A stretch of 64,000 nucleotides of DNA, from assembly GCA_002841695.1 (NCBI GenBank), contig PHAN01000016.1:4024-68023 (forward strand), given 5' to 3'. This DNA is from Elusimicrobia bacterium HGW-Elusimicrobia-1. GTDB taxonomy: Bacteria; Elusimicrobiota; Endomicrobiia; PHAN01. Position 1 is the stretch's first letter, and the number at the start of each line of letters is the position of its first letter. This document shows positions 19,827-37,112 of the stretch, in pieces. Below the pieces are notes generated by a model that saw nothing but the letters and a program-made list of their open reading frames with translations, did no database searches and had not been told where the DNA came from. A program made the translations under genes and the position numbers.

Positions 19827-19859
19827 GCGTCCGGAGAACTACATAAGGAGACACAATCA

Positions 19860-21252: not shown

Positions 21253-21336
21253 AATTAAGAAGTCGGTGAATTTAGCGATGGAAAGCGCCGGACGCCGACA
21301 GCGTCCCGGTGTTTTTCTGATATTTGCGGAGGCAAT

Positions 21337-23174: not shown

Positions 23175-23233
23175 AAGCCGATCGCCCGGTAAATATCGCC
23201 GCCGCGCATATCGCGGCGCAATGGAGAAAAGTT

Positions 23234-24217: not shown

Positions 24218-24282
24218 TGTTTTTGTTTCCGGCGCTTTTTCTTTGGACAAGTAAAAAGAGCGAATAACCAGGAGGATTACGA

Positions 24283-24939
24283 ATGTTCTACATTTTTCTT
24301 ATGGGAAGACCCGGCTGCGGCAAGTCGGAAATTTACCGCCGCGTGGCCGAAGAGCTTAAAAACCGAAAACTCGCGTCGGATTTCCTCAGAGTAGACGATT
24401 TTCCTAAACTCTGGGCCAAGTTTCAGGGCGATGACGCCGCTGACAAAGCCGGCACACCGCGCAAATATTCGCGCGCGACGGCGGACGGCGGTTATCTCGT
24501 CACCAACGACGGAGTATGGGACGAAATCCTCAAAGAAGTCGACGCCGACCTCAAAGACCTTTCGCGGCCCGGACGCGCGATATTCATAGAGTTTTCGCGC
24601 CCGAATTACGTGCATTCGATACTGGAAAATTTTTCCGGAAGCGTGCTCGACACCGGAGTCGTGGTCTACATCGACTGCTCCTTTGAAACCTGCTGGCAGA
24701 GGAACGTCAGACGTCACGAGGCCGCCGTCGCCGCGGGCGGCGACGACCATCTGGTAAGCCGCGAAGAGATGGAAAAAACTTATCTTCACGACGACCGCGA
24801 CGCTCTCGTGAAAAACAACAGGATACCGGTTGTCGTCGTTGATAACGAAAAAGACGGCACCGAGCATCTTGCCGCCGCCACCGCGGCCGTGCTCGCGGAA
24901 ATGGAGAAAATCGTCAAGTCAAGAAAAATAAGCATCTAA
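24283..24939 (+). CDS. P-loop NTPase, putative nucleoside/nucleotide kinase (family not recognised)
   Basis: Walker A at the N-terminus (IFLMGRPGCGKSE). Size (218 aa) and layout are reminiscent of adenylate/shikimate-kinase-like small kinases. Lies between the sugar-phosphate isomerase and add. Confidence 0.5.
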   Translation: MFYIFLMGRPGCGKSEIYRRVAEELKNRKLASDFLRVDDFPKLWAKFQGDDAADKAGTPRKYSRATADGGYLVTNDGVWDEILKEVDADLKDLSRPGRAIFIEFSRPNYVHSILENFSGSVLDTGVVVYIDCSFETCWQRNVRRHEAAVAAGGDDHLVSREEMEKTYLHDDRDALVKNNRIPVVVVDNEKDGTEHLAAATAAVLAEMEKIVKSRKISI

Positions 24940-24951
24940 AAGAGGCGTACA

Positions 24952-25983
24952 ATGATAGACGCAAAAACAGCACACCTGCTTCCCAAGGCCGACCTCCACT
25001 GCCATCTCGACGGTTCCGTGCGCACTTCCACGATCCGCGATCTGGCCGGGAAGGCCGGCGCTAAGCTTCCTGCCGAAGACCTTGCCGAACTGGAAAAATA
25101 CGTCAGGGTGCCCGAAACCTGCCGGTCGTTGACGGAGTTTCTGGCGTGCTTCAACTTTTTCTACGACTTCTTGAAATCGCCGGAAGCCGTCGAAAGGATA
25201 GCTTACGAGCTTGTCGAGGACGCGGCCAAAGAAAACGTGCGTATAATCGAGGTGCGCTTCGCCCCGCCCCTGCAGGAAACCGATAAGTTTTCCGCCGACG
25301 AAGTGGTGCGCCGCGCGCTTGCCGGTCTTGCCGCCGGAGAGAGTGATTTTAAGGTAAAGACGGGAGCCATACTTTGTTTCTATCGGTCGCTTTCCGAGAC
25401 CCGGAACGACGCCACGCTTTCGTCGCTCAAAAAATATTTCGGCAACGGCGTGATAGGCGCGGATCTTGCTGGCGACGAGTCGCGCTATCCGTTTTCGCTC
25501 TACGCGAAATATTTTCGCGCCGCGGTGGATATGAAAGTGCCGCTTACAGCCCACGCCGGCGAAGCCGCCGGGCCCCAGAGCATTAAAGCGGCTCTTGACC
25601 TCGGCGCAAAAAGAATAGGACACGGAACGCGCTTGCGCGAGGATTCCGAATTACTTAAACGGGTTGTCGCCGAGGGCGTGCCGCTTGAAGTGTGCGTCAC
25701 GTCGAACGTTCAGACGCAAACAGTGCCCGATTATTCCGATCATCCGATAAAAAAATACTACGACGCCGGCGTCAAGGTGACGTTAAACACCGACGACCGT
25801 TCCGTATCGGGCATTGATTTGAGCTACGAAGTAAAAAAAATATCCGAGGTCTACGGATTCGACGATAAAGACATAGCCCGCATACTGGAAAACGGATTCG
25901 ATGCGTCGTTTATCGACGAGAAAACAAGAAAAGAAGTTTTATCGCGGGCCTCAAAAGAGATAAAAGAAATACTGAAAATTTAA
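24952..25983 (+). CDS. add: Adenosine deaminase
   Basis: LPKADLHCHLDGS metal-binding start. Also HAGE and the C-terminal ...NTDD region. Confidence 0.9.
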   Translation: MIDAKTAHLLPKADLHCHLDGSVRTSTIRDLAGKAGAKLPAEDLAELEKYVRVPETCRSLTEFLACFNFFYDFLKSPEAVERIAYELVEDAAKENVRIIEVRFAPPLQETDKFSADEVVRRALAGLAAGESDFKVKTGAILCFYRSLSETRNDATLSSLKKYFGNGVIGADLAGDESRYPFSLYAKYFRAAVDMKVPLTAHAGEAAGPQSIKAALDLGAKRIGHGTRLREDSELLKRVVAEGVPLEVCVTSNVQTQTVPDYSDHPIKKYYDAGVKVTLNTDDRSVSGIDLSYEVKKISEVYGFDDKDIARILENGFDASFIDEKTRKEVLSRASKEIKEILKI

Positions 25984-26003
25984 AACGGAGGTTTCAAAAG
26001 TTT

Positions 26004-26399
26004 ATGGATAAAAAATATCAGGAATTGCTCGAAGCCGCAAAAGCCGCCCGCAAAAACTCTTACAGCCCCTATTCAAAGTTTCCCGTGGGAGCGGCTCTCT
26101 TGACGGAAGACGGAAAAATCTTTACCGGCTGCAATGTCGAAAACGCCTCCTACGGTTTGACTAATTGCGCCGAGCGCACCGCGATATTCAAAGCCATTTC
26201 CGAGGGCTCCAAAAAATTCAAGGCCATAGCCATAGTGCTCGACGCTCCCGATTACGGAGCGCCCTGCGGCGCGTGCCGTCAGGTTATATACGAGTTCGGT
26301 CCCAATATCGACGTCATAATGGGCACGGTGTCGGGTAAGTCCGAGGTAAAAAAAATCTCGGAACTTATACCTCTGGCATTCGGACCGGAGAATCTTTGA
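26004..26399 (+). CDS. cdd: Cytidine deaminase
   Basis: CAERTAI and PCGACRQV zinc-binding motifs. Length 131 aa. Confidence 0.92.
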   Translation: MDKKYQELLEAAKAARKNSYSPYSKFPVGAALLTEDGKIFTGCNVENASYGLTNCAERTAIFKAISEGSKKFKAIAIVLDAPDYGAPCGACRQVIYEFGPNIDVIMGTVSGKSEVKKISELIPLAFGPENL

Positions 26400-27675: not shown

Positions 27676-27900
27676 TGTGACAATTGAAAAAGTATCCAAA
27701 ATGTCACCCTGAACCCTTCGTTTTTGTCACCCTGAGTGAAACGAAGGGTCTATCTTGTCGTCGAAAGACGAGATTCTTCGCGGAGTTTATCCTGAGGCAT
27801 TATGAGATTCTTCGCTACGCTCAGAATGACGCCGCCGAAGGACCAGAATGACAAATACGGGGTTTTTCAACGGCCTCAGTTTGTGATGACCGCTTTTTTA
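27676..27900. repeat. Composite intergenic repeat carrying blocks shared with 21114-21252 and 10702-10800 plus internal hairpins
   Basis: Internal hairpins cccttcgttt..aaacgaaggg and tcgtcgaaagacga, plus a gtcaccctga duplication. Contains an in-frame ATG (27802) that the ORF track used as an unlikely start for the transporter gene. Confidence 0.6.
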
Positions 27901-27915
27901 CGGGAGATACATAAA

Positions 27916-29955
27916 ATGAAAAGAAAAATGTTATTCGCTTTGGCTTTGGCAGCCGTAATATTTTCGCAGGCATATGCCGCGAAGATAGAAATAGTATCGG
28001 GCAACAAGCAGACCGGTGTCGTCGGAGAAAAAAGCGACGAATCTCTGGTAGTGCGCGTTCTGTCGGATGCGGGCAAGCCGCTGTCCGGTATGCGGGTGAG
28101 TTTCAGAATCGATCAGGAGCCCGGTCAGCCGTACAAAAAAGGACGGAAGGCGGAACTTTCTTCGGCGAGCGCCGCGACGGACAAAAACGGAACGGCGTCC
28201 GTGGACATTATTTTCGGGGAGCCCAAAGCGGGACAGTACGCCGTAACGGCTTTTATCGACGATAAAAATACAGTTCCCGCGGCGTTTGAACTCATGTCCG
28301 TGAAAAGCGGATGGCTGGTAATGGTCGCCCTCGGGGTTTTGGGCGGCCTGGGCGTTTTTCTGTTCGGAATGTTTTTCTTGAACGACTCTCTTCAAAAAGT
28401 CGCCGGCAACAAACTCAAAAACCTGCTGATAATGCTGACCAATAATCCGCTCAAAGGCCTGATGACGGGGCTTGTAGTGACCGGAATAAATCAGTCCTCG
28501 TCGGCCACTACGGTTCTTGAAGTCAGCTTGGTCAGCGTCGGTCTGATGACTTTTTACCAGTCGATGGCCGTCACCGTGGGCGCCGAGATAGGTTCCACGC
28601 TTCTGGCGCAGCTGGTGGCGTTTAAGGTATCTGATTTTGCGGCCATCATCGCCGGTCTCGGCTTTTTTATAACGTTTTTCAGCAAGTCCAAGAAAATCAA
28701 GCAGGTCGGCGATATCATACTGAGTTTCGGCGTGCTTTTTATCGGAATGAAGATAATGTCCGATTCTCTGTCTCCGCTTAAAACTTATCAACCCTTTCTT
28801 GAGTTGATGGAAAACGTCGCCAATCCGATAGTGGGAATTCTCGTCGGACTGGCCTTTACCCTCGTTGTTCAGTCGAGCGGAGCGACTACCGGTATAGTCA
28901 TATCTCTGGCGCTGGCCGGCACCATCACATTGAAACAGGCCATTCCGCTGAATCTCGGCGCTATGGTCGGCACGTGCATTACCGCCATACTCGGCTCCAT
29001 AGGCCGCGGGCGGGAGGGAAAACGCGTGGCGTTTTTCCACGTGCTTCACCAGATTGCGGGCGTCGCCCTGGTATTCCCGTTTATGACGATAATAAACTAT
29101 AAGGGAGCGCCGGCGTGGATACATTTTACGGAATGGTTCACGCTTACGTTTTTCGGCACCACGGACGTCACGCGTCAGATAGCTATGGCGCATACGCTGA
29201 TTTCCGTGTTTAACGCCGTATGGATTCTGCCGATTTTGCGTCCGGCTTACCGGCTTATCAATCTGGTGCTTCCGTCCAAGGAAGAGGAAAAACCTTTCGG
29301 GCCCATTTATCTCGACGAAAATCTTGTGGCGACTCCCGATCTGGCTCTGGTGCAGGTCCGCAAGGAAATAGTCCGCGAGGGCGAGATTGTCGTCGAAATG
29401 CTCAAGGAGACCATAAACGTTTTCGACTGCCGCGAGATAAGATTGTGCGACACGGTCTCCCTGAAGGACATCCGCGTGGACATTTTGCATAATGCGATAG
29501 TGCCTTACCTGACCAGAATAGGCCAGCAGGTGCTCAACGACGAACAATCCAAGGAACAGACGGCGCTTCTGTATATTACCGCGGATGTTGAGGCCGTGGG
29601 CGATATCATAGATAAAAATATTATGCCGCTTGCCCGCAAAAAATTCGAAAACAAACTCTGGTTTTCCGACGAGGGCTGGGAAGACATAATGCAACTGCAT
29701 ACGCGCGTTTTGAAGGTAATCGAACACGCCGTCAGGGCGATACGCGACAACGACAGGGAGTACGCCCAACTCGTCGCCAATTCCAAACCCGAAATCGGCA
29801 GTTACGAAGACGAACTCAGACGCAAGCACATCGCCCGCCTGAACGCGGGTCTCAAGGAATCGCTGGATACGTCCAGTATTCATATAGACCTCATCGATCA
29901 GTTCAAGCGCATCAACTCGCACACGTCGGCGATAGGTTTCGTTATTCTGTCCTGA
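27916..29955 (+). CDS. Na+/phosphate cotransporter (NptA/PhoU-domain type) with N-terminal signal peptide and extracytoplasmic bacterial Ig-like (Big_1-type) domain
   Basis: Signal peptide MKRKMLFALALAAVIFSQAYA. Big-like domain (EIVSGNKQTGVVGEK...ATDKNGTASVDI...GQYAVTA). Two Na/Pi cotransporter repeats (GINQSSSATT; VVQSSGATTG) and C-terminal PhoU-like repeats. Confidence 0.75.
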   Translation: MKRKMLFALALAAVIFSQAYAAKIEIVSGNKQTGVVGEKSDESLVVRVLSDAGKPLSGMRVSFRIDQEPGQPYKKGRKAELSSASAATDKNGTASVDIIFGEPKAGQYAVTAFIDDKNTVPAAFELMSVKSGWLVMVALGVLGGLGVFLFGMFFLNDSLQKVAGNKLKNLLIMLTNNPLKGLMTGLVVTGINQSSSATTVLEVSLVSVGLMTFYQSMAVTVGAEIGSTLLAQLVAFKVSDFAAIIAGLGFFITFFSKSKKIKQVGDIILSFGVLFIGMKIMSDSLSPLKTYQPFLELMENVANPIVGILVGLAFTLVVQSSGATTGIVISLALAGTITLKQAIPLNLGAMVGTCITAILGSIGRGREGKRVAFFHVLHQIAGVALVFPFMTIINYKGAPAWIHFTEWFTLTFFGTTDVTRQIAMAHTLISVFNAVWILPILRPAYRLINLVLPSKEEEKPFGPIYLDENLVATPDLALVQVRKEIVREGEIVVEMLKETINVFDCREIRLCDTVSLKDIRVDILHNAIVPYLTRIGQQVLNDEQSKEQTALLYITADVEAVGDIIDKNIMPLARKKFENKLWFSDEGWEDIMQLHTRVLKVIEHAVRAIRDNDREYAQLVANSKPEIGSYEDELRRKHIARLNAGLKESLDTSSIHIDLIDQFKRINSHTSAIGFVILS

Positions 29956-29991: not shown

Positions 29992-31383
29992 ATGAGCGAA
30001 CAACATCAGCAGCAGCCCGCGCTTTTCAACGAAGACGAACTCTCAAAATTAAAAATCACCAAGGTGATCAAACGCGACGGCCGCATAGTGGCCTTTAACC
30101 GCGGGAAAATCGTCGATTCGATTTTCCGCTCGGCGGTCGACGTGGGCGGCTCTGACCGCGCTCTCGCGGAGTCCCTGGCCGACAAAGTCATAACGCTGAT
30201 GAAACAGATATATCCCATAGCCGCAATGCCGTCCGTCGAGGAAATACAGGATCTGATAGAAAAAGTTCTGGTCGGCAACGCGCATTACCGCACTGCCAAG
30301 GCGTACATTCTTTACCGCGACGAACACAGAAGGTTGCGCGAACATAAAGACGCCAAAATCGTTGTGGAGGACAATGTGCCTTATAAAGTTCTCTGGAGAG
30401 TTTATTCCTGGAATGTGGATCACGGCTGCGACACGACCGAGAATATAGAAAAAACAATCCGCGACGGCAGGTTCCCCGAATTGGTGGCGGCCGCCGAGAA
30501 GCAGTACCACGACAACATAGGCGACGTCGCCGACAGAATACTGGAAAGAGCCGACAAAATAAAACTGGTCATCGTCGCCGGTCCGTCGTCGAGCGGCAAG
30601 ACCACTACGACTCTTAAAATCGGGGAAAAACTCGCCGCAAAAAATCTTTCGTTTGTCTCCATCGGGCTGGATAATTATTTTAAGGACCTCCAAGAGCATC
30701 CCAAGGATGAATACGGCGATTATGATTTTGAGACGCCGGAAGCGCTCGACTTGAAACTCATAAACGAGCATCTCTTTGAATTGATGAAGGGAAAAACCAT
30801 AAAGATGCCCCTGTATGATTTCAAAACGGGCAAGCGCAAACTCAACGCTCAGGAATTCCGTCTGGAAAAAAACCAGATTCTTCTCATTGACTCGCTGCAC
30901 GGTCTTTATCCGGCCATGACGGCGTCGATTCCGCACAACAATAAGTTCAAATTCTACATCGAGGCGCTCTGTCAGATAAAGGATTCAAAGGGCGAGTTTA
31001 TGCGCTGGTGCGATTTAAGAATGCTTCGCCGCATGATCAGAGATTCCTGGCACCGCTCGTACGACCCCGTGCGCACCGTCGGGCACTGGCATTACGTAAG
31101 GCGTTCCGAAAAGCGTCACATTGTGCCTTTCATAAATAAATCGGATTATATTTTTAACGGGTCGCTTCCTTACGAACTTCCGCTTCACAAGAAATATCTT
31201 TTCAAATACTTTGATTCGATACTCGGCGCTTATAAGGACGATCCCAAAAAGATAGACGCCTACATCCGCGCCAAGCGCGTTTACGATATATTATCGGAAT
31301 TCAAAACGGATCCCGACGACACTTGCGTCCCCGACAATTCTCTGATGAGAGAGTTTATAGGCGGCAGTAAGTACAGCTACTGA
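29992..31383 (+). CDS. ATP-cone domain fused to uridine kinase/phosphoribulokinase-family nucleoside kinase
   Basis: N-terminal ATP-cone (KVIKRDGRIVAFNRGKIVDSIFRSAVDVG). PRK-family P-loop VIVAGPSSSGKTTT. Downstream LIDSLHGLY region typical of Udk. Confidence 0.7.
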   Translation: MSEQHQQQPALFNEDELSKLKITKVIKRDGRIVAFNRGKIVDSIFRSAVDVGGSDRALAESLADKVITLMKQIYPIAAMPSVEEIQDLIEKVLVGNAHYRTAKAYILYRDEHRRLREHKDAKIVVEDNVPYKVLWRVYSWNVDHGCDTTENIEKTIRDGRFPELVAAAEKQYHDNIGDVADRILERADKIKLVIVAGPSSSGKTTTTLKIGEKLAAKNLSFVSIGLDNYFKDLQEHPKDEYGDYDFETPEALDLKLINEHLFELMKGKTIKMPLYDFKTGKRKLNAQEFRLEKNQILLIDSLHGLYPAMTASIPHNNKFKFYIEALCQIKDSKGEFMRWCDLRMLRRMIRDSWHRSYDPVRTVGHWHYVRRSEKRHIVPFINKSDYIFNGSLPYELPLHKKYLFKYFDSILGAYKDDPKKIDAYIRAKRVYDILSEFKTDPDDTCVPDNSLMREFIGGSKYSY

Positions 31384-31454: not shown

Positions 31455-32474
31455 ATGCTCAGTGTAAGAGAGACGATCGAGGAGCGTGAAAAGACACTTG
31501 CGCCGCAGGCGCAGCTGTCCGGTAAAACCCGCGGTCGGGCATTAAGCGAAGACGAATGCCCCGTGCGCACCGTGTATCAGCGGGATCGCGACCGCATTCT
31601 CCACTCTCTGGCTTTCAGGAAACTCAAGCAGAAGACGAACGTGTTTCTGTCGACGACAGGCGAACAATTCCGCACACGACTTACCCATACGCTTGAAGTT
31701 TCCGCCATAGCCCGTACGATTGCCCAGGCGCTTAACCTTAATTCCGACCTCGCCGAGGCCGTAGCCCTCGGACACGACCTGGGGCACACGCCTTTCGGTC
31801 ACGCCGGCGAGGATGTCATAAAAAAAATCGATCCGGAATTTCATCACGCCCGACAATCGGTAAGGGTAGCCGAATTTTTCGAGAAAGAAGGCAAAGGGCT
31901 TAATCTGACGGTTGAGGTTCTCGACGGAATTCTTAAACACACGAAAGGCAAAAAAAAGATAAGCGAATTCGACGGCAACGGACTTTACGGCAAACCTCTT
32001 ACTCTTGAGGGTATGATAGTGCAATACGCCGACTGGGTCGCCTACATCAATCACGACCTTGATGACGCTATGCATATGGGACTTGTTTCTGAAAGCGATG
32101 TTCCGTCGTCCGTGGCAAAAACTCTGGGAACACGTCATTCGCGTCGCGTTAACACGATGGTTCAGGACATAGTGGAGTGTTCGGCCGGCCTCGAAGTCAT
32201 TAAGATGAGCGCCGGAGTCCTTGCGGCCACGGAAGAACTCAGAGATTTTTTATACCGCGACGTGTATCCGCGCCCGGAAGTTCTGGGAGCGGAAAATCAG
32301 TCCGAGCGGGTTATTGATTTCTTGACGGAAGGATTGACAAAACGTCCCGATATTATATATAAGGAATACCCTTGGTATCCGAGGGAAATACCGCTAAATT
32401 CGGCCGTAATCGATTTTGTCTGCGCCCTCACCGACAACGCCGCGCTGGCTCTTTACGGGGAGTTAAAAAAATGA
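31455..32474 (+). CDS. dgt: dGTP triphosphohydrolase-like HD-domain protein
   Basis: VYQRDRDRILHS, FRTRLTHTLEV, LGHDLGHTPFGH, and the Dgt-like subfamily length. Confidence 0.8.
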   Translation: MLSVRETIEEREKTLAPQAQLSGKTRGRALSEDECPVRTVYQRDRDRILHSLAFRKLKQKTNVFLSTTGEQFRTRLTHTLEVSAIARTIAQALNLNSDLAEAVALGHDLGHTPFGHAGEDVIKKIDPEFHHARQSVRVAEFFEKEGKGLNLTVEVLDGILKHTKGKKKISEFDGNGLYGKPLTLEGMIVQYADWVAYINHDLDDAMHMGLVSESDVPSSVAKTLGTRHSRRVNTMVQDIVECSAGLEVIKMSAGVLAATEELRDFLYRDVYPRPEVLGAENQSERVIDFLTEGLTKRPDIIYKEYPWYPREIPLNSAVIDFVCALTDNAALALYGELKK

Positions 32475-32698
32475 AATGCTACGTCGACCGTATCGAAGAC
32501 GGCAAGTACGCGGTGATAAATGTGACGGGCGGCGGCGAGATGATAATTCCCGTGAAGCAGTTCAAGTTCAAAATCCGCGAGGGGATGCATCTTGACGCGG
32601 ATTTCCGTTGCGACAAAAAATCCGAGCGCGCAACTCTCGACAGAGTAAAAAAACTTCAGGCCGAACTTTTGGCGCGTTCCGGTAAAAAAAACAAATGA
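32471..32698 (+). CDS. DUF3006-like small protein
   Basis: 75 aa. MKCYVDRIEDGKYAVI..GGG pattern typical of DUF3006. Start overlaps the dgt stop. Confidence 0.5.
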   Translation: MKCYVDRIEDGKYAVINVTGGGEMIIPVKQFKFKIREGMHLDADFRCDKKSERATLDRVKKLQAELLARSGKKNK

Positions 32699-34185
32699 TA
32701 AAAAGAGCTTCCGTTATTCTGGCGGCACTCGCCGTCGCGGCGCAAATAGCCGTTGCCTCCGACGACATCAAGATATGGTTCTCGAATCCGGACTCATCTT
32801 TGCCAAGCCCTCTTTCGCACGATACTTCCAAAAGAATAGACGCGGCGCTCTATGATTTCATAGATTCGGCTCAGAGCGGAACCACCGTCTACGTCGCCAT
32901 TTTTGAAATGAATCTCGACGGCTCCGGCGATGCCTCGGCGCTTAAAAACATAAAAGGCCTGCTTAACTCCAAAAGCGCCGACGGCGTCGCAATTTATGTC
33001 GTCGGGCACTCCACTGTAACTCTTGCCGGTCTCACTTTCCCGACTACGGTCTACCGCGCCGCTTACGAGGGCGAAGGCACCGAGGGTTCCGGCGGCCTCA
33101 TGCACAACAAGTTCGTCGTGCTGAAGGATTCCGCCGTCTGGACGGGGTCGTACAATTTTACTCTCAGCGCGACTTTGCAGCAGGACAACAACGCCGCGGA
33201 GATATTCTCGCCGGAACTGGCCGGGGTTTTCGAGACGGAATTCATCAATATGTACGGGCCGCTTGCCGTCGCTTCCAAAAAATTCGGCGACATTAAAACG
33301 TCTTCGGCGTCGGCGGCCGGCACAAACGTAAACGGCAGTTCCGTCACTATGCGCGACGGCACCGTCGTAAAAGTTTATTTCAACCCCTACACGACTCCGC
33401 AGACGGTAGCCGCGGCCATCGAAAGCGAAATCGCGCCGTCGCCTGTTTCGGGTATACCCGCGCCCGCGGAAAGCGTCGGTTTTGCCGCGGCGTGGTTTTC
33501 CAGAACGTCGATATCCGAAGCCATGAAAGAGGCGCTCGCGGCCGATGCCGGTCTTGATATATCAGGAATAATGGACGATCAGAGCAGCAATACGTCGAAT
33601 TTCTGGAGTTTGAAGACATCGACGATAAATGTCGTGTGGGACTCGCGCCGCTCGTCATTCGGGCGGGGGCTTATGCACCATAAATTTATTTTTATCGACC
33701 CGCGACGCTTAAACGGCCGTGTCGTTACCGGTTCGGCCAACTGGTCCAACTCAGGCGCGACTTCCGACGGCAACGACAACGACGAAAACATCGTCATAAT
33801 ATACAACTCTTCCGTAAGCGGTAAATATTACGACGAGTTCCGCAGAATGTTCGCGCTGACGGGTCAGGTTTCGGCGGGCGCCGTGGCAAAGGCCGTCGAC
33901 AACGTCATAATGTATCCGAGTCCCGCGCGGGCTTCCGCGGCTATAGGTTTCGATATCTCGGCGGTCGTCGAGAAAATCACCATCAAGATATACACGCTTT
34001 CGGGCGAATTGGCGCGGTCCATTACCCCTGAAACATATTATCCCGGGTTTTACAACGAGGTCGTCTGGAACCTGAAAAATTCCACGGGGCAGCGTGTCGC
34101 GCCCGGTCTTTATTTCATAAAAGTCGAAGCCGAAACTCCCGACGGAAAGTTTTTCGCGCTCAAAAAAGCCGCGGTGGGGAAGTGA
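32695..34185 (+). CDS. Secreted phospholipase-D-family (HKD) nuclease with C-terminal T9SS-type (Por_Secre_tail-like) sorting domain
   Basis: Signal peptide. Two HKD motifs (HNKFVVLKD...GSYNFT and HHKFIFID...GSANWS). C-terminal ~85 aa match the T9SS CTD consensus (YPSP...IKIYTLSGELARSI...VWNLKNSTGQRVAPGLYFIKVEA). Confidence 0.8.
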   Translation: MIKRASVILAALAVAAQIAVASDDIKIWFSNPDSSLPSPLSHDTSKRIDAALYDFIDSAQSGTTVYVAIFEMNLDGSGDASALKNIKGLLNSKSADGVAIYVVGHSTVTLAGLTFPTTVYRAAYEGEGTEGSGGLMHNKFVVLKDSAVWTGSYNFTLSATLQQDNNAAEIFSPELAGVFETEFINMYGPLAVASKKFGDIKTSSASAAGTNVNGSSVTMRDGTVVKVYFNPYTTPQTVAAAIESEIAPSPVSGIPAPAESVGFAAAWFSRTSISEAMKEALAADAGLDISGIMDDQSSNTSNFWSLKTSTINVVWDSRRSSFGRGLMHHKFIFIDPRRLNGRVVTGSANWSNSGATSDGNDNDENIVIIYNSSVSGKYYDEFRRMFALTGQVSAGAVAKAVDNVIMYPSPARASAAIGFDISAVVEKITIKIYTLSGELARSITPETYYPGFYNEVVWNLKNSTGQRVAPGLYFIKVEAETPDGKFFALKKAAVGK

Positions 34186-34219
34186 TGGTGATTAGTGGCG
34201 AGTGGTTAGTGATTAGTAA
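34186..34219. repeat. Heptad-repeat element copy (gtgatt agtggcg agtggtt agtgatt agtaaat) 5' of the outer-membrane protein gene
   Basis: Shares gtggcgagtggYtagtgattagt with 1514-1544. Its inverted partner lies at 34326-34362. Confidence 0.65.
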
Positions 34220-34235
34220 ATAAAACGGATAGCAT

Positions 34236-35207
34236 ATGAGCAAATTGTGTCTTTCGAGCAGTGTTCCGACGGCGCCCCGCGGACGAGGATGGCTCCTGCG
34301 ACGGATTGCCCTTGTCCTTGCCTTTACTATCCACTATCCACTCGCCACTAACCACTTACTATACGCCGCCGGTTCGTCCGCCGGAGAGTTTCTTAAAATA
34401 ATTCCCGGCGTCCGCGCCGCGGGTATGGCCGGGACTTTTACCGCTCTTGCCGACGATAAAGCGGCATTGTATTACAACCCTGCCGGACTTTCGCAGCTTC
34501 GCTGGAACGAGGCGTCGCTGTCCTATAACAGGTGGATAATCGACACTTCTCTGACGTCGCTGACCTACGGGCACACATTCGGCGTCAACGGCTCGGCGGC
34601 CGTCGGGTTTACCTATTACGATTCGGGCGATATAGAAAAACGCGGCGACACCAAAGACGCCGAGGGCAGTTTCAGGCATACCGGATTGGCCGCCCGCGCC
34701 GCTTACGGCAATGAATTTTTTGAAGGCGTGTCGCTCGGCATGGCGGTAAAATACGCCGCGGAGACGCTCGACGGCGATTCCACCGGCGCCATCGGCTTCG
34801 ACGCCGGAGTTCATTATAAGACCATTCTTGATTTCGGCGAAACATCTTTCGGCGCCGCCGCGCAGAACATCGGCTCCAAGATGTGGGAACAATATGATAT
34901 GCCTTTGCTTATTCGCGCCGGCGTCGCGCTAAAACCATCGAAAGATTTTCTTACGCTGGCCGCCGAATACGTCGCGCCTCAGGCGGGGATACCGTATATG
35001 GGGGTGGGTATGGAAATCACCCCCGGCGATTTGTCGCTGCGCGCGGGTTATAGGGCCGGCGTCTCCGACGTGTCGGGTCTTTCGGCCATCACGCTGGGAT
35101 TCGGTTACAGATATACGCAGGATTACGACTATCTGTTTAATTACGCCTTCTCGACGCAGGGCGACCTCGGCCTTATGCACAGGGTCGAAGTCGCAATGGC
35201 ATTCTGA
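34236..35207 (+). CDS. Outer-membrane beta-barrel protein (FadL/PorV- or PorP/SprF-like, uncertain)
   Basis: Signal peptide. Contains a YYNPAGL motif. Alternating beta-strand pattern with a C-terminal aromatic residue (MAF). Immediately downstream of the T9SS-CTD nuclease. Confidence 0.45.
   Translation: MSKLCLSSSVPTAPRGRGWLLRRIALVLAFTIHYPLATNHLLYAAGSSAGEFLKIIPGVRAAGMAGTFTALADDKAALYYNPAGLSQLRWNEASLSYNRWIIDTSLTSLTYGHTFGVNGSAAVGFTYYDSGDIEKRGDTKDAEGSFRHTGLAARAAYGNEFFEGVSLGMAVKYAAETLDGDSTGAIGFDAGVHYKTILDFGETSFGAAAQNIGSKMWEQYDMPLLIRAGVALKPSKDFLTLAAEYVAPQAGIPYMGVGMEITPGDLSLRAGYRAGVSDVSGLSAITLGFGYRYTQDYDYLFNYAFSTQGDLGLMHRVEVAMAF
34326..34362. repeat. Inverted heptad-repeat element copy (actatcc actatcc actcgcc actaacc act) inside the 5' coding region (signal peptide) of the outer-membrane protein gene
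   Basis: Approximately the reverse complement of 34186-34219 and 1514-1544. The two copies flank the RBS and start codon at 34236. Confidence 0.6.
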
Positions 35208-35224
35208 TAAAAGGTCGTTGGCCG

Positions 35225-36115
35225 ATGAAAAGACAAATAAAACATTATCGATATTCGGCGCTCATGCGCTTCTTATCCATTTTCGCGGCGCTGTCGCTGC
35301 GATGCGGCGCGGCCTTTGCCGACACATCGATACTGAAGGTTCATTTTCTCGACGTCGGACAGGGGGATTGCTCTCTCATTCAGACGCCCGGAGGAAAAAC
35401 TCTGTTGGTGGACGGCGGGCCCGAAGACGACTACTTCGACGCCGGCCGCGAAATTATTGTTCCGTATCTTAAAAAACTCGGCATCAAAAAAATAGACGCG
35501 ATATTTGTTTCGCACGCTCATCGCGATCATATAGGCGGCATTCCCGAAATAATAAAAAACTTCGAGGTAGGCGCTGTTTACGATACCGGCTACGCATATC
35601 CTTCGCCGATTTATGAAAAGCTCCTCCGGCAGATAAACGCCAATAAGATAACTTACATACAGGCGCGCGCCGACACCAAAGCGGTAATAGACCCGGACGT
35701 GGAAATAAAGATTCTGGCCCCCCCGAAGAAGCTTCCGTGGGACGATCCGAACAATAATTCCATGGTGGTACGGCTTTCGTACAAAGAAATCTCGTTTCTG
35801 TTTACCGGCGACATCGAGGCGGACGCCGAGGATTCTCTCGTCAGAATTTATCGCTACGGCCTGGAATCCAACATACTGAAAGTCGCGCACCACGGCTCCA
35901 AAACATCATCCGCCGATTATTTTCTGGAAGCGGTTAATCCCGAGGCCGCGGTCATACAAGTCGGACGCCGCAACCGTTTCCGGCATCCCAGCCCGTCTAC
36001 CGTCAAAAAATTAAAAGATTTCGGGATGAACGTCTACCGGAACGACATCGACGGCACCGTCGTCGTCGATACCGACGGTCATGTCTTTGAAGTCAAAAAA
36101 CTCGGGTTTCAGTAA
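35225..36115 (+). CDS. Secreted ComEC-type metallo-beta-lactamase-fold protein (putative nuclease), paralog 1
   Basis: Signal peptide. FLDVGQGDCSLIQTP start typical of the ComEC MBL domain. HAHRDHIGG metal motif. Also VAHHGS. Confidence 0.75.
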   Translation: MKRQIKHYRYSALMRFLSIFAALSLRCGAAFADTSILKVHFLDVGQGDCSLIQTPGGKTLLVDGGPEDDYFDAGREIIVPYLKKLGIKKIDAIFVSHAHRDHIGGIPEIIKNFEVGAVYDTGYAYPSPIYEKLLRQINANKITYIQARADTKAVIDPDVEIKILAPPKKLPWDDPNNNSMVVRLSYKEISFLFTGDIEADAEDSLVRIYRYGLESNILKVAHHGSKTSSADYFLEAVNPEAAVIQVGRRNRFRHPSPSTVKKLKDFGMNVYRNDIDGTVVVDTDGHVFEVKKLGFQ

Positions 36116-36137
36116 TCCTGCGGCACAATAAATATCC

Positions 36138-37070
36138 ATGATTGTAAAAAAAACAGCACGATTGTCGGCTGCGCTTTTTTTTGCCGTTTTACTGACGGGC
36201 TGCGCAACCGCTCCGAAGCGCGCAACTCGCCTCTTTGTCGCGCCTGCCGATTACATATCGGGCGACACCGACATCAAAATACATATGATAGACGTCGGCC
36301 AGGGCGATTCCATCCTTATACAGACGCCCAACGGACGCAATATGCTCATAGACGCCGGAGGCGTGCCTTCGTTTATGGGCGGGAATACCGATACCGGCCG
36401 CGAATACGTCATTCCGTTTTTACAGCGGCATTTGCGCCGGGGATTTACTCTGGACGCGGTTATAATGTCGCACCCGCACGCGGACCATATAGGCGGTATG
36501 CCGACGGTGCTGGAGAATGTGAAAGTCCGCAAGGTATACGATTCCGGCTACGCCCGCGGCGACAGCGAATACGGAAAGTGTCTTGAAATTATCAAGCGCA
36601 AGAATATCGACTACGAGGTCGTCTCCGCCGGAGACGTCATAGAACTTGACCCCGACCTGGAAATAACCGTGCTTTCGCCGCCGTCGGGCATATCATTCGA
36701 GGGCGCTAACAACAATTCCGTGGTAGTGCGGATAAAATACAAGGATTTTGTGACGATATTGACGGGCGACGCCGAGGTCGAAGCCGAGAACTATATGGTC
36801 CCAAGTTTTCGCGGCGGACTTCAGGCCAGCTTGCTTAAGGTCGGTCATCACGGGTCGCGCACTTCTTCCACGCCGGGATTTATAAACGCGCTGATTCCGG
36901 AAGTAGCCCTGATACCATGCGGGAGAAACAACCGTTTCGGTCACCCTCATTCCGAAACCGTTTCGCGTCTGAGAGGGGCCGATACATATGTTTATCGCAG
37001 CGATTACGACGGCGATGTCACCGTTACTTCCAACGGATTCAGTTTCACCGTCCGGACTTCGCGCAGATAA
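36138..37070 (+). CDS. Lipoprotein ComEC-type metallo-beta-lactamase-fold protein (putative nuclease), paralog 2
   Basis: Lipobox LLTGC. Also IDVGQGDSILIQTP, HPHADHIGG and VGHHGS. Confidence 0.75.
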   Translation: MIVKKTARLSAALFFAVLLTGCATAPKRATRLFVAPADYISGDTDIKIHMIDVGQGDSILIQTPNGRNMLIDAGGVPSFMGGNTDTGREYVIPFLQRHLRRGFTLDAVIMSHPHADHIGGMPTVLENVKVRKVYDSGYARGDSEYGKCLEIIKRKNIDYEVVSAGDVIELDPDLEITVLSPPSGISFEGANNNSVVVRIKYKDFVTILTGDAEVEAENYMVPSFRGGLQASLLKVGHHGSRTSSTPGFINALIPEVALIPCGRNNRFGHPHSETVSRLRGADTYVYRSDYDGDVTVTSNGFSFTVRTSRR

Positions 37071-37083: not shown

Positions 37084-37112
37084 TTGAATTCGCGCGTGGA
37101 TTTGTGTATAAT
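37084..37112 (+). promoter_or_regulatory. Consensus-like sigma70 promoter (TTGAAT-N17-TATAAT with extended TGTG) upstream of HIT-rpsU-nif3-dnaG-rpoD
   Basis: ttgaat tcgcgcgtggatttgtg tataat, read directly. Confidence 0.55.

What the first reader, a model, noticed from the sequence alone, without database searches (positions are those of the whole stretch)
32695..37070. Secreted nuclease module: PLD nuclease with T9SS-type C-terminal domain, outer-membrane barrel, and two tandem ComEC-MBL paralogs
A signal-peptide HKD nuclease carries a textbook Por_Secre_tail-like C-terminal domain. The next gene is a beta-barrel outer-membrane protein, possibly a PorV/PorP-like shuttle. Then come two paralogous ComEC-type metallo-beta-lactamase domains, one with a signal peptide and one a lipoprotein. 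In competence proteins this domain is proposed to be the DNA nuclease.

Free-standing duplicated ComEC-MBL domains alongside a T9SS-cargo nuclease suggest extracellular or periplasmic DNA degradation feeding the downstream nucleoside pathway. The T9SS-type tail also hints at an FCB-group or related candidate-phylum host.
Basis: partly seen in the sequence, partly recalled or inferred. Interest (0 to 1): 0.7.

Follow-up and report, generated by a model that had tools for sequence, protein, structure and literature searches.

The report
Envelope DNA-degrading operon in Elusimicrobiota
A groundwater Elusimicrobiota bacterium has a five-gene operon for exported nuclease-type enzymes, one carrying a sorting tail and sitting next to a matching outer-membrane barrel of a kind so far studied only in Bacteroidota; it lies beside genes for burning nucleosides and most likely lets the cell feed on environmental DNA.

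Summary
The four + strand genes are at the stated coordinates: a two-HKD PLD enzyme with a signal peptide and a C-terminal sorting domain, a 14-strand PorV/PorQ-family barrel, and two 44%-identical ComEC-type MBL nucleases (one soluble, one lipoprotein).

Corrections:
- The tail has T9SS type-A motifs but scores below the Por_Secre_tail thresholds. It passes FlgD_ig.
- A fifth gene was missed: DUF3006, translationally coupled to the PLD.
- The host is Elusimicrobiota (HGW-Elusimicrobia-1), not an FCB organism.
- No T9SS core family was seen among the window's annotated genes.

New evidence:
- The module recurs in Elusimicrobia down to 33-35% PLD identity.
- A barrel gene lies within 3 kb of 14 of 16 tail-bearing PLDs and 0 of 102 tail-less relatives.
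- Unrelated tail-bearing proteins in Elusimicrobia also sit directly upstream of such barrels.
- In sister loci the barrel is fused to ComEA-type DNA-binding repeats.
- The window also encodes a deoC/deoB/deoA/deoD-like nucleoside catabolism set and phosphate transporters.

Best reading: envelope DNA degradation for nutrition, with the barrel as the tail's dedicated receptor or anchor. Not shown: nuclease activity of the PLD, the route across the outer membrane, and presence of a T9SS. This is a new variant of known kinds, of moderate interest.

The parts
29992..31383 (+). ATP-cone + uridine-kinase fusion. It is the conserved upstream neighbour of the module.
   Evidence: PF03477 and PF00485. 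The same gene precedes DUF3006-PLD in L003 and L054.
31455..32474 (+). dGTP triphosphohydrolase. Its stop overlaps the DUF3006 start (ATGA). Among the loci examined it is seen in this position only in this genome.
   Evidence: NF002327 scores 411 bits, above its cut-off of 393. The overlap was read directly. The gene is absent from this position in L003 and L054.
32471..32698 (+). DUF3006 small protein (75 aa) with no signal peptide. It is translationally coupled to the PLD.
   Evidence: PF11213 scores 39.7 bits, above its cut-off of 32.3. The 4-bp overlaps are visible. It lies directly upstream of the PLD in L003, L054 and L068, and in L063 with one inserted gene between them.
32695..34185 (+). 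Exported two-HKD PLD-superfamily enzyme (putative nuclease) with a C-terminal sorting domain.
   Evidence: PF13091 in two stretches, E = 8e-27. AF2 model pLDDT 85.9. The top fold matches are PLD4 and PLD3 (ssDNA exonucleases), closely followed by lipid PLDs.
32695..32757 (+). PLD signal peptide (residues 1-21, with AVA|S cleavage-type site).
   Evidence: Read from the sequence. The maximum 10-residue hydropathy is 2.95 at residue 7. AF2 models it as helix 3-19 detached from the fold.
33103..33156 (+). First HKD motif (H137-N-K139 ... G151-S152-x-N154).
   Evidence: These columns are invariant in alignment A1 of 35 sequences.
33676..33744 (+). Second HKD motif (H328-H329-K330 ... G346-S347-x-N349-W350).
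   Evidence: These columns are invariant in alignment A1.
33880..34182 (+). C-terminal beta-sandwich sorting domain (residues ~396-496), T9SS type-A-like.
   Evidence: FlgD_ig scores 30.5 bits (cut-off 27). Por_Secre_tail scores 20.4 and 18.8 bits, below its cut-offs. The PorU and PorZ C-termini match at E = 6e-9 and in the PDB as 6za2 and 5m11. Y407, P408, P410, G471, Y473 and K491 are invariant. AF2 models seven strands with pLDDT above 90.
34236..35207 (+). PorV/PorQ-family 14-strand outer-membrane barrel with an N-terminal hatch (NPAGL at residues 81-85) and a C-terminal Phe.
   Evidence: NF033709 scores 147 bits, above its cut-off of 90. AF2 pLDDT 89.4 with 14 strands. Foldseek top hits are 8gl6_F and 6h3i_F at E ~ 1e-12. 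N81-L85 are invariant in A2.
35225..36115 (+). MBL1: free-standing ComEC-type metallo-beta-lactamase-fold nuclease domain with an SPI-type signal (predicted soluble and periplasmic).
   Evidence: It matches TIGR00361 positions 438-663 at E = 1.9e-45 and 9ic4_A at E = 3.4e-49. DVGQGD, HAHRDH, TGD, HHGS and RHP are all present.
36138..37070 (+). MBL2: paralogous ComEC-type MBL domain, a lipoprotein (lipobox L-T-G-C22 at 36192-36203).
   Evidence: It matches the C-terminal part of TIGR00361 at E = 2e-47 and is 44% identical to MBL1. The lipobox Cys is conserved in the L054 and L063 orthologs.
37084..37112 (+). Best sigma-70-like promoter match in the region (TTGAAT-17-TATAAT). It lies just after the MBL2 stop and marks the likely 3' boundary of the unit, before HIT-rpsU-dnaG-rpoD.
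   Evidence: 10 of 12 consensus positions match. This is a consensus match only.
52..26399 (+). Context: nucleoside and deoxynucleoside catabolism/salvage island. It contains a DeoC/LacD-family aldolase (52-1509), transketolase, adenine deaminase (10783-12510), phosphopentomutase (12507-13715), PHO4 and PhoU, two PNP_UDP_1 phosphorylases, pyrimidine nucleoside phosphorylase (16230-17540), RecJ-like and DHH exonucleases, a PfkB kinase, adenosine deaminase and cytidine deaminase.
   Evidence: Precomputed Pfam calls for the identical contig and DeoC at 68.6 bits.
27802..29955 (+). Context: Na/Pi cotransporter with PhoU domain, for phosphate import.
   Evidence: PF02690 Na_Pi_cotrans and PF01895 PhoU.

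Best explanation
This is an envelope-located DNA-degrading ('DNA-foraging') operon of an Elusimicrobiota bacterium.

Proposed steps:
1. The unit (dGTPase)-DUF3006-PLD-barrel-MBL1-MBL2 is transcribed together. This is inferred from 4-bp overlaps and 17-50 bp gaps.
2. The PLD, barrel, MBL1 and MBL2 are exported by Sec. The barrel is inserted into the outer membrane. MBL2 is lipid-anchored and MBL1 is soluble in the periplasm. This is inferred from the signals, which are conserved in orthologs.
3. The PLD's T9SS-type C-terminal domain docks onto its own PorV-like barrel, which acts as a dedicated receptor or anchor at the outer membrane. This would resemble PorV binding type-A tails and PorP-like barrels holding type-B cargo in Bacteroidota. 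It is inferred from strict tail-barrel co-occurrence and from the fold. Which face of the membrane, and what translocon if any, are unknown.
4. The two-HKD PLD cuts DNA. The two ComEC-type, probably Mn-dependent, MBL nucleases/phosphodiesterases degrade the fragments further. This is inferred. Nuclease activity has been shown only for the homologous ComEC domain of Moorella.
5. Phosphate and nucleosides are taken up and used by the neighbouring phosphate transporters and deo-like pathway: nucleoside phosphorylases, deaminases, phosphopentomutase, DeoC-family aldolase, PfkB kinase and transketolase. This is inferred from gene content.
6. DUF3006 is a cytoplasmic partner made together with the PLD. 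Its role is unknown; a pre-export inhibitor or chaperone is a guess.
For: - Domain identities and intact catalytic motifs.
- Export signals conserved in orthologs, including the soluble versus lipoprotein split of the two MBLs.
- The module DUF3006-PLD-barrel-MBL-MBL recurs in L054 and L063, with partial copies on the short contigs L003 and L068. PLD-barrel-MBL also occurs in a different gene context in L055.
- A barrel-family ORF lies within 3 kb of 14 of 16 tail-bearing PLD genes and 0 of 102 tail-less PLD relatives (Fisher p = 2e-16, not corrected for phylogeny).
- Unrelated tail-bearing proteins (fn3/LTD giants, a Kelch propeller) sit directly upstream of barrel paralogs in four further cases.
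- The barrel's best structural matches are the PorV-sized chain F of the T9SS translocon complexes, one of which is the CTD-substrate-bound state.
- In sister loci the PLD-barrel pair sits next to barrel::ComEA-HhH fusions, further HhH proteins, an LTD+tail protein and a SpoVG-repeat protein, all nucleic-acid-binding domain types.
- The window holds nucleoside catabolism and phosphate-uptake genes.
- The ComEC C-terminal MBL domain is an Mn2+-dependent nuclease (PMC8579336).
- DNA-degrading bacteria co-localise extracellular nuclease genes with phosphohydrolase and transporter genes (PMC8289736).
Against: - No activity data exist for any of these proteins.
- The PLD fold matches lipid PLDs almost as well as the PLD3/PLD4 exonucleases. 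Sequence links to the nucleases NucT and Zucchini are weak.
- No nucleotidase with an export signal and no nucleoside transporter were identified next to the module.
- The RecJ-like and DHH exonucleases and most salvage genes could simply be housekeeping genes that happen to be syntenic.
- The module sits directly upstream of the conserved rpsU-dnaG-rpoD block, so part of the synteny may reflect vertical inheritance rather than function.
- The co-occurrence statistic is confounded by phylogeny, because all tail-bearing PLDs come from one lineage.
- How a folded 50-kDa enzyme would cross the outer membrane without a SprA-type translocon is unexplained.
Confidence: 0.6

Rival explanations
1. Competence accessory module. 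The free-standing ComEC-type MBLs supply in trans the periplasmic nuclease that degrades the non-transforming strand. The PLD acts like H. pylori NucT, an HKD nuclease linked to transformation. The barrel and its ComEA-fused relatives form an outer-membrane DNA reception site. The purpose would be DNA uptake for transformation rather than nutrition.
For: - Both MBLs match only the ComEC C-terminal nuclease domain.
- Only about half of ComEC proteins carry that domain, with repeated gains and losses (PMC6299819).
- comEC, comF, comM and dprA are reported as usually conserved in Elusimicrobia, and how DNA crosses their outer membrane is stated to be unclear (PMC8809381).
- Sister loci hold barrel::ComEA-HhH fusions, a pilin and a prepilin peptidase.
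- The PLD halves hit the NucT model weakly (E = 4e-8).
Against: - The window has no ComEC, ComEA, DprA or secretin gene.
- The immediate neighbours are catabolic and salvage genes and phosphate transporters.
- HhH proteins and MBLs co-occur in only one locus, L055. The loci richest in HhH proteins lack MBLs and DUF3006.
- I could not test whether this genome's ComEC lacks an MBL domain.
- The two purposes are not mutually exclusive.
Confidence: 0.2
2. Canonical T9SS cargo. Elusimicrobiota possess a complete but unrecognised type IX secretion system. [quoted passage not shown] This concerns only the export route and is compatible with a DNA-degrading function.
For: - The tail has type-A motifs and matches the PorU and PorZ C-termini.
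- Many family members carry a precomputed PF18962 hit.
- The barrel passes the PorV/PorQ family cut-off and is structurally closest to the PorV-sized translocon chain.
- CHU_C (type-B) tails next to PorP/SprF-like barrels also occur in Elusimicrobia.
Against: - The T9SS is described as specific to the FCB superphylum (PMC12398890). My literature searches found no report of it in Elusimicrobia.
- No T9SS core family appears among the families listed for the window or in about 20 kb around each related locus examined.
- The barrel fails the PorV (58 vs 250 bits) and PorQ (83 vs 220 bits) equivalog cut-offs.
- A dedicated barrel per cargo is not how type-A cargo is handled in Bacteroidota, where, to my knowledge, one PorV serves many cargoes.
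Confidence: 0.25
3. Phosphate scavenging from lipids or other phosphodiesters. The PLD would be a true phospholipase D or glycerophosphodiesterase-like enzyme. The MBLs would be phosphodiesterases, like the pneumococcal phosphorylcholine esterase Pce/CbpE. Together they would release phosphate and head groups rather than degrade DNA.
For: - Lipid PLDs (7e0m, PLD1/2, Streptomyces PLD) score nearly as well as PLD3/4 in the fold search.
- After ComEC, the next PDB sequence matches of MBL1 are the phosphorylcholine esterases 1wra and 2bib (E = 4e-9).
- Two phosphate transporters lie nearby.
Against: - The MBLs are about 40 orders of magnitude closer to ComEC nuclease domains than to Pce.
- Sister loci surround the PLD with DNA-binding domains (ComEA HhH, SpoVG, LTD), not lipid-related genes.
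- The neighbouring catabolic genes are nucleoside-specific.
Confidence: 0.1
4. Anti-phage defence or antibiotic resistance. PLD (DrmC-like) and MBL (Lamassu/Avs-like) effectors would form a defence system, or the MBLs would be beta-lactamases (AHM-like).
For: - Weak or partial hits to DrmC, LmuA-type MBL, Avs1a and 6A-MBL.
- blaAHM model at E = 2e-26 over its full length.
Against: - All enzymes carry export signals, whereas defence effectors act in the cytoplasm.
- Scores are far below the cut-offs (blaAHM 92 vs 590, DrmC 30 vs 133, Avs1a 44 vs 420).
- There is no sensor, ATPase or methylase partner.
- The context is chromosomal, conserved and housekeeping.
Confidence: 0.03

Closest known systems
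T9SS type-B CTD cargo paired with PorP/SprF-like barrels in Bacteroidota (for example PG1035-PorP and SprB-SprF; Gorasia et al. 2022, PMC9143113)
   Same: A cargo gene ending in a C-terminal sorting domain sits next to a gene for a dedicated small outer-membrane barrel. That barrel binds and anchors the cargo, independently of PorU and PorV. The same adjacency is seen here for the PLD and for four unrelated cargoes in Elusimicrobia.
   Different: Here the tail is type-A-like (YPNP/GxY; FlgD_ig/Por_Secre_tail) and the barrel is PorV/PorQ-like rather than PorP-like. The host phylum is outside the FCB group, and no SprA translocon has been shown.
PorV of the T9SS (chain F of the SprA translocon structures 6h3i and 8gl6)
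   Same: Both are 14-strand FadL-type barrels with an N-terminal hatch. PorV is the best structural match (TM 0.69, E ~ 1e-12). The barrel is a member of the NCBIfam PorV/PorQ subfamily (147 bits against a cut-off of 90).
   Different: Sequence identity to PorV is only 18-20%. The barrel fails the PorV and PorQ equivalog cut-offs. It is encoded once per cargo rather than once per genome. In sister lineages it is fused to ComEA-type DNA-binding repeats.
ComEC C-terminal MBL nuclease domain (Moorella thermoacetica; Silale et al. 2021, PMC8579336; PDB 9ic4 and full-length ComEC structures)
   Same: Same domain family (E = 3e-49). DVGQGD, H-x-[HD]-x-D-H, the TGD aspartate, HHGS and the final His are all conserved. 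Both are located outside the cytoplasm.
   Different: The proteins here are free-standing and lack the OB-fold and the transmembrane channel. The gene is duplicated into a soluble and a lipoprotein copy, and it is co-operonic with a PLD enzyme and an outer-membrane barrel.
HKD nucleases: PLD3/PLD4 (two-HKD ssDNA 5' exonucleases), Nuc and NucT (single-HKD bacterial nucleases)
   Same: Two HKD motifs in one chain of about 370 residues. PLD4 and PLD3 are the top fold matches. Each half matches Nuc-like PLDc_2, and NucT weakly.
   Different: Sequence identity is only 12-16%. Lipid PLDs match nearly as well. Substrate is untested. A bacterial signal peptide and a T9SS-like tail are added.
DNA-foraging gene clusters of sediment bacteria (Ca. 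Izemoplasmatales and others; Wasmund et al. 2021, PMC8289736)
   Same: Exported nuclease genes are co-localised with further nucleases or phosphohydrolases, phosphate transport and nucleoside or base catabolism genes. LTD domains accompany such nucleases.
   Different: The enzyme families differ (HKD and ComEC-MBL here). This organism has an outer membrane, and the cluster includes a dedicated outer-membrane barrel. Those clusters include ABC transporters, which I did not identify next to this module.

Membership tests
PLD (HKD) superfamily | Two copies of HxK(x)4D ... GSxN forming one active site | tested here: met
   H137-N-K139 ... G151-S-x-N154 and H329-K330 ... G346-S-x-N349 are invariant in 35 sequences. 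PF13091 matches in two stretches at 94 bits against a cut-off of 27. In motif 1 the Asp lies one residue further along than the consensus (HNKFVVLKD), read from the sequence.
HKD nucleases (Nuc/NucT, PLD3/4) | Hydrolysis of nucleic-acid phosphodiester bonds, or membership of a curated nuclease model | tested here: inconclusive
   NucT NF010492 scores 33 bits against a cut-off of 297. Zucchini 4ggj matches at E = 8e-3. PLD4 and PLD3 are the top fold hits, but lipid PLDs fall within about one log of E-value. Activity is not testable with these tools.
T9SS type-A C-terminal sorting domain (TIGR04183 / PF18962) | Score at or above the curated cut-off of the family model | tested here: not met
   TIGR04183 scores 18.8 against 23 and PF18962 scores 20.4 against 27 on the isolated tail. 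PF13860 FlgD_ig passes (30.5 against 27). The more distant relatives (P0005 onward, 33-47% identity) mostly carry a precomputed PF18962 hit, marked weak where the strength is given.
T9SS type-A C-terminal sorting domain (TIGR04183 / PF18962) | Located at the extreme C-terminus, beta-sandwich of about 80-100 residues, conserved motifs (YPNP-type, GxY, basic last strand) | tested here: met
   The domain spans residues 396-496 of 496. AF2 models seven strands with pLDDT above 90. Y407, P408, P410, G471, Y473 and K491 are invariant. The best PDB sequence hits are the PorU and PorZ C-terminal domains. The motif definitions are recalled from the T9SS literature, not re-derived here.
T9SS cargo | Presence of the T9SS machinery (SprA/Sov, PorU, PorZ, GldK/L/M/N) in the same genome | not testable with these tools
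   No such family is listed among the window's annotated genes. No report of a T9SS in Elusimicrobia was found.
T9SS cargo | Tail removed by PorU and cargo attached to anionic LPS or released | not testable with these tools
   This requires proteomics.
PorV/PorQ family (NF033709) | Score at or above the subfamily cut-off | tested here: met
   147.4 bits against a cut-off of 90, covering model positions 3-325 of 326.
PorV proper (NF033710) or PorQ proper (NF033711) | Score at or above the equivalog cut-off | tested here: not met
   PorV scores 58 against 250. PorQ scores 82.6 against 220. Pfam PorV PF19572 scores 19.6 against 27.
FadL/PorV-type barrels | 14-strand barrel with an N-terminal hatch carrying the NPA motif, and a C-terminal aromatic residue | tested here: met
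   AF2 gives 14 strands and a hatch at residues ~45-90 with pLDDT 89. N81-P-A-G-L85 is invariant. The protein ends in ...AMAF. PorV ranks above TbuX, TodX and FadL in Foldseek.
ComEC/Rec2 (TIGR00361) | Full architecture: OB-fold (DUF4131), Competence transmembrane channel, and MBL domain | tested here: not met
   Only model positions ~438-663 are matched. Scores of 155 and 162 bits fall below the cut-off of 190. The proteins are 296 and 310 aa with one N-terminal signal and no channel.
ComEC-type MBL nuclease domain | Homology to the ComEC C-terminal domain with intact metal-binding motifs | tested here: met
   9ic4_A matches at E = 3.4e-49 and 30bt_A at E = 1.7e-44. DVGQG, H97, D101-H102, D196, H222-H223 and H254 are invariant in seven module MBLs. 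Nuclease activity of the family was shown for Moorella ComEC (PMC8579336) and has not been tested for these proteins.
Bacterial lipoprotein (MBL2) | Lipobox [LVI][ASTVI][GAS]C after a hydrophobic segment | tested here: met
   L-T-G-C22 in the window. IAGC35 and FTGC38 in the L054 and L063 orthologs.
DUF3006 (PF11213) | Score at or above the gathering cut-off | tested here: met
   39.7 bits against 32.3. The family is almost always a standalone protein of 61-99 aa.

The most novel reading that the evidence does not exclude
Elusimicrobiota, a phylum outside the FCB group, may use a one-cargo-one-barrel sorting system. In it, proteins ending in T9SS-type tails are received by a dedicated PorV/PorP-like outer-membrane barrel encoded next door, possibly without the canonical T9SS translocon. 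One branch of this system (PLD nuclease, ComEC-type MBLs, barrel::ComEA fusions) would be the outer-membrane DNA capture and processing station. That is the step these bacteria are reported to lack an explanation for in DNA uptake.
Probability: 0.25. Interest if true: 0.8.

Novelty: new variant of a known kind. Interest (0 to 1): 0.55.

Why it matters
If the reading is right, three things follow.

1. T9SS-type sorting tails and PorV/PorP-like receptors operate outside the FCB superphylum, in a cargo-plus-private-barrel arrangement. This bears on how the T9SS evolved and on what the minimal tail-recognition unit is.
2. HKD enzymes and free-standing ComEC-type MBL domains would join the list of exported nucleases to look for when predicting which uncultured subsurface bacteria recycle environmental DNA, a major phosphorus and nitrogen pool.
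3. The barrel::ComEA fusions in sister lineages give a concrete, testable candidate for how Elusimicrobia handle DNA at the outer membrane. The Endomicrobium literature calls this step unclear.

DUF3006 also gains its first functional context, as a cytoplasmic partner co-translated with an exported HKD enzyme.

Tried and rejected
- **T9SS genes.** I looked for them among the Pfam families listed for the window and found none. This says little about the genome.
- **Literature.** Searches for T9SS in Elusimicrobia/Elusimicrobiota gave nothing relevant. There are no papers on DUF3006.
- **DUF3006 function.**
  - The word-index search found only close relatives.
  - The exhaustive HMM search found 114 representatives but no informative fusion. 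P0263 looks like an LspA fragment run together with DUF3006.
  - There is no solved structure and no plasmid hit.
  - My recollection that DUF3006 neighbours secreted ComEC-like MBLs in Firmicutes could not be tested and is not used as evidence.
- **Fold search to decide nuclease versus lipase.** It did not discriminate.
- **Haloferax Hvo_1477 as a precedent for a 'ComEC-like' eDNA lipoprotein.** On reading the paper, it is a thermonuclease and not an MBL, so I dropped it.
- **Defence-system reading.** Rejected because of the export signals and sub-threshold partial hits.
- **L071.** This is the one tail-bearing PLD locus with good flanks and no detectable barrel. The upstream 308-aa protein has a signal-like N-terminus and a terminal Phe, but shows no similarity to the barrel profile (hhalign E = 0.08). 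It remains a real exception.
- **Type-2 loci.** The 307-aa gene downstream of the PLD is only weakly barrel-like (hhalign probability 48%, E = 2e-4).
- **Failed look-up.** One look-up of a window gene failed because the called start differs.

Full report
**1. What is in the sequence**

Four + strand ORFs lie at exactly the coordinates given: 32695-34185 (496 aa), 34236-35207 (323 aa), 35225-36115 (296 aa) and 36138-37070 (310 aa). It encodes a 75-aa DUF3006 protein at 32471-32698 (PF11213, 39.7 bits against a cut-off of 32.3). Its start overlaps the stop of the upstream dGTPase gene, and its stop overlaps the PLD start, both as ATGA. The remaining gaps are 50, 17 and 22 bp. The best sigma-70-like match in the region lies just after the MBL2 stop (37084-37112). 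The genes therefore probably form one transcription unit that ends at about 37070, upstream of HIT-rpsU-(NIF3-like)-dnaG-rpoD.

**2. The proteins**

*PLD.* PF13091 matches in two stretches (E = 8e-27). In an alignment of 35 family members both catalytic motifs are invariant: H137-x-K139...G151-S-x-N154 and H329-K330...G346-S-x-N349. The N-terminus (MIKRASVILAALAVAAQIAVA|SDD) is a typical Sec signal and is hydrophobic in all orthologs. The AF2 model is confident (pLDDT 85.9). Its closest solved folds are human PLD4 and mouse and human PLD3, the two-HKD ssDNA 5' exonucleases. However, a bacterial PLD (7e0m), PLD1/2 and vaccinia F13 fall within about one log of E-value. Sequence links to the nucleases NucT, DrmC and Zucchini are weak. 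The fold therefore permits a nuclease but does not prove one.

*Tail (residues ~396-496).*
- It passes Pfam FlgD_ig (30.5 bits against 27).
- It falls short of the T9SS type-A models (PF18962 20.4 against 27; TIGR04183 18.8 against 23).
- It matches the C-terminal domains of PorU and PorZ in NCBIfam (E = 6e-9) and in the PDB (6za2, 5m11).
- The family consensus shows the YP(N/S)P, GxY and basic-last-strand pattern that I recall as the type-A hallmarks.
- Most of the ~460-aa relatives carry a precomputed PF18962 hit.

I therefore accept a T9SS-type tail at the level of homology and motifs, but not 'textbook' by curated score.

*Barrel.*
- It is a member of the NCBIfam PorV/PorQ subfamily (147 bits against 90).
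- It fails the PorV and PorQ equivalog cut-offs (58 against 250; 83 against 220).
- It also hits the Treponema UPF0164 family.
- The AF2 model (pLDDT 89.4) has 14 strands and an N-terminal hatch. The hatch motif N81-P-A-G-L85 is invariant in 40 homologs.
- The protein ends in Phe.
- Foldseek ranks chain F of the two SprA translocon complexes first (8gl6, the RemA-CTD-bound state, and 6h3i; E ~ 1e-12, TM 0.69). By size (345-367 residues) and in view of the NCBIfam result I take this chain to be PorV. TbuX, TodX and FadL follow at E ~ 1e-8.

*MBL1 and MBL2.*
- They are 44% identical to each other.
- They match only the C-terminal nuclease part of ComEC/Rec2 (E = 2e-45 and 2e-47).
- MBL1 matches the solved ComEC C-terminal domain 9ic4 at E = 3e-49.
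- All metal-binding motifs are intact in seven module copies.
- That domain of Moorella ComEC is an Mn2+-dependent nuclease/phosphodiesterase (PMC8579336).
- MBL1 orthologs have SPI-type signals. MBL2 orthologs always have a lipobox cysteine. The duplication and the soluble versus lipoprotein split are therefore old and maintained.

**3. Where it comes from**

The PLD and DUF3006 proteins are 100% identical to proteins of 'Elusimicrobia bacterium HGW-Elusimicrobia-1'. This organism belongs to phylum Elusimicrobiota. The nearest genome in the species collection is an Endomicrobiia MAG at 76% identity. Reviews describe the T9SS as FCB-specific (PMC12398890). I found no report of it in Elusimicrobia. 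No T9SS core family appears among the Pfam families listed for the window's genes, although a few genes have no family call. I could not scan the rest of the genome.

**4. Conservation and co-occurrence**

The order (Udk)-DUF3006-PLD-barrel-MBL-MBL recurs in L054 and L063. On the short contigs L003 and L068 the part that fits is the same. PLD identities to the window are 76% (L003), 44% (L054) and 34-35% (L063, L068). In L055 (33% identity) PLD-barrel-MBL sits in a different gene context.

A second architecture is found in L056, L061, L062, L064, L065, L067, L069 and L070. Where the contigs reach, it consists of:
- a PorP/PorV-like barrel upstream of the PLD;
- a weakly barrel-like 307-aa gene downstream (hhalign E = 2e-4);
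- an LTD+tail protein;
- a barrel fused to two ComEA-type HhH repeats (HHH_3 113-124 bits; TIGR00426 75-91 bits against a cut-off of 53);
- a further ~740-aa HhH protein;
- in L056, a pilin and a prepilin peptidase.

These loci have no MBL and no DUF3006.

I scanned 134 loci with local profiles. Counting only loci with at least 1 kb of flank, a barrel-family ORF lies within 3 kb of 14 of 16 tail-bearing PLD genes and 0 of 102 tail-less PLD relatives (Fisher p = 2e-16). Of the two exceptions, L068 ends 24 bp after the PLD. L071 is a true exception. This statistic is not corrected for shared ancestry.

To test generality I looked at two barrel paralogs that are not near any PLD. In L140 a 3,032-aa fn3 giant ending in FlgD_ig (43 bits) stops 2 bp before the barrel. 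In L141 a 731-aa Kelch propeller with a sub-threshold CHU_C/Por_Secre_tail-like end precedes the barrel by 115 bp. The giants upstream of the extra barrels in L056 and L055 also end in a CHU_C (34 bits) or a Por_Secre_tail-like (19.5 bits) domain. The tail, rather than the enzyme, is therefore what travels with the barrel.

**5. Surroundings in the window**

Upstream lie the following genes:
- a DeoC/LacD-family aldolase, transketolase and adenine deaminase;
- phosphopentomutase, PHO4 and PhoU;
- two PNP_UDP_1 phosphorylases and pyrimidine nucleoside phosphorylase;
- a RecJ-like exonuclease with an RNase_T insert and a second DHH protein (neither has a signal peptide);
- a PfkB kinase, adenosine deaminase and cytidine deaminase;
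- a Na/Pi cotransporter and an ATP-cone-uridine kinase.

SurE lies downstream. This amounts to a deoC/deoB/deoA/deoD-like route from (deoxy)nucleosides to central metabolism, plus phosphate uptake. Co-localisation of exported nucleases with such functions is a recognised signature of DNA-foraging bacteria (PMC8289736).

**6. Most likely mechanism (confidence about 0.6)**

The unit encodes an envelope DNA-degrading apparatus. The four exported proteins cross the inner membrane via Sec (inferred from signals). The barrel is inserted into the outer membrane. The PLD's tail docks on that barrel (inferred from co-occurrence, from the PorV-like fold, and by analogy with two Bacteroidota cases: PorV in a CTD-substrate-bound translocon complex and PorP-like barrels anchoring type-B cargo, PMC9143113). 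The PLD and the two ComEC-type MBLs then degrade DNA (inferred from context; for the MBLs also from family biochemistry). Products feed the neighbouring phosphate-uptake and nucleoside-catabolism genes (inferred). DUF3006 is cytoplasmic and co-translated with the PLD. Its role is unknown, and an inhibitor or chaperone role is only a guess. The side of the outer membrane on which the PLD ends up, and the translocon used if any, remain open.

**7. Rivals**

(a) Competence accessory (about 0.2). Only about half of ComEC proteins have the MBL domain (PMC6299819). [quoted passage not shown] The ComEA-fused barrels fit a DNA-reception role. However, the window's neighbours are catabolic, and most HhH-rich loci lack MBLs.

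(b) Canonical T9SS cargo (about 0.25). This concerns only the export route and is compatible with the main reading. It hinges on a genome scan I could not run.

(c) Lipid or phosphodiester phosphate scavenging (about 0.1). The fold search permits it, but the DNA-binding neighbours and the far stronger ComEC affinity of the MBLs argue against it.

(d) Defence system or beta-lactamase (about 0.03). The export signals and sub-threshold partial hits argue against it.

**8. Comparison with known systems, and novelty**

Each part belongs to a known superfamily. The membership tests show that the barrel is a PorV/PorQ-family member but is neither PorV nor PorQ proper. The MBLs are ComEC-domain homologs but not ComEC. 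The tail is T9SS-like but sub-threshold. The PLD is an HKD enzyme of unproven substrate.

What is new is the combination and its setting. An HKD enzyme with a T9SS-type tail, a private PorV-like barrel, free-standing duplicated ComEC-type nucleases and DUF3006 form one conserved operon, in a phylum where no T9SS has been described. Sister loci have the barrel fused to ComEA-type DNA receptors. I rate this a new variant of known kinds, with interest 0.55.

The most novel reading not excluded is a T9SS-independent cargo-plus-private-barrel sorting system that also forms the outer-membrane DNA-handling station of Elusimicrobia. I give it about 0.25 probability and interest 0.8 if true.

Noticed in passing
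L055:9408-10907 and L056:11364-12755 (also L061, L062, L067, L069, L070): These proteins of 463-499 aa have an N-terminal PorV/PorQ-like barrel region (NF033709 at 34-57 bits, below the cut-off) fused to two ComEA-type helix-hairpin-helix DNA-binding repeats (TIGR00426 at 75-91 bits, above the cut-off of 53). A ~720-740-aa HhH protein follows. This outer-membrane-barrel::ComEA architecture may be relevant to the unexplained outer-membrane step of DNA uptake in Elusimicrobia.
   Followed up: partly
L140:1-6990, L141:3690-6963, L056:1-7973, L055:3-3568: Unrelated large proteins (fn3/CarboxypepD_reg giant, Kelch propeller, fn3/LTD giants) end in FlgD_ig, CHU_C or Por_Secre_tail-like domains. Each is immediately followed by a PorV/PorP-like barrel gene. 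This suggests a general cargo-plus-private-barrel rule in Elusimicrobia.
   Followed up: partly
window 17604-19826 and 19860-21113: A 740-aa RecJ-like protein (DHH, DHHA1, RecJ_OB) has an inserted RNase_T (DnaQ-like) exonuclease domain. A second 417-aa DHH protein follows. Neither has a signal peptide, and both lie inside the nucleoside-catabolism block. They may be cytoplasmic oligonucleotide degraders or simply housekeeping genes.
   Followed up: no
window 52-1509: A 485-aa ORF fuses a Flavoprotein domain (PF02441) to a DeoC/LacD-family aldolase domain (68.6 bits). This is an unusual architecture for a deoxyribose-phosphate aldolase-like enzyme.
   Followed up: no
window 29992-31383: An ATP-cone domain (the allosteric nucleotide sensor of ribonucleotide reductases) is fused to a uridine-kinase/PRK domain. 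The gene is conserved immediately upstream of DUF3006-PLD in L003 and L054.
   Followed up: no
window 26495-27673: A 392-aa protein has a P-loop (GGAGTGKST) but no family above threshold (AAA_24 at 16.9 bits). It sits between cytidine deaminase and the Na/Pi transporter. It may be a novel nucleoside or nucleotide kinase-like protein.
   Followed up: no
L055:3580-4692: A 370-aa protein with three SpoVG-like stretches (74.7 bits) is encoded directly upstream of the tail-bearing PLD. SpoVG is known as a nucleic-acid-binding protein.
   Followed up: no
L056:17228-17383 and L141:7369-12521: Wzy_C (O-antigen-ligase-like) + TPR proteins lie close to the tail/barrel genes in two independent Elusimicrobia loci. 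In L056 they are next to a pilin and a prepilin peptidase. This may reflect pilin or surface-protein glycosylation, or a link to tail attachment.
   Followed up: no
one search hit list (P0140-P0162; P0171, P0186, P0219, P0239; P0213, P0224, P0233): Barrel homologs occur fused to fn3 (about 420 aa), to TPR repeats (about 550 aa) or to a CsgG-family domain (about 500 aa). The PorV-like barrel appears to be a versatile scaffold outside Bacteroidota.
   Followed up: no
window, many places (for example 27931-30006 minus strand, 691 aa): Long antisense ORFs overlap almost every + strand gene. None had family support where checked, and nearly all real genes are on the + strand. These look like shadow ORFs of a 53% GC genome rather than genes.
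   Followed up: no
P0275: A 725-aa protein contains eight tandem copies of the N-terminal half of DUF3006. It is the only multi-copy architecture found for this family.
   Followed up: no
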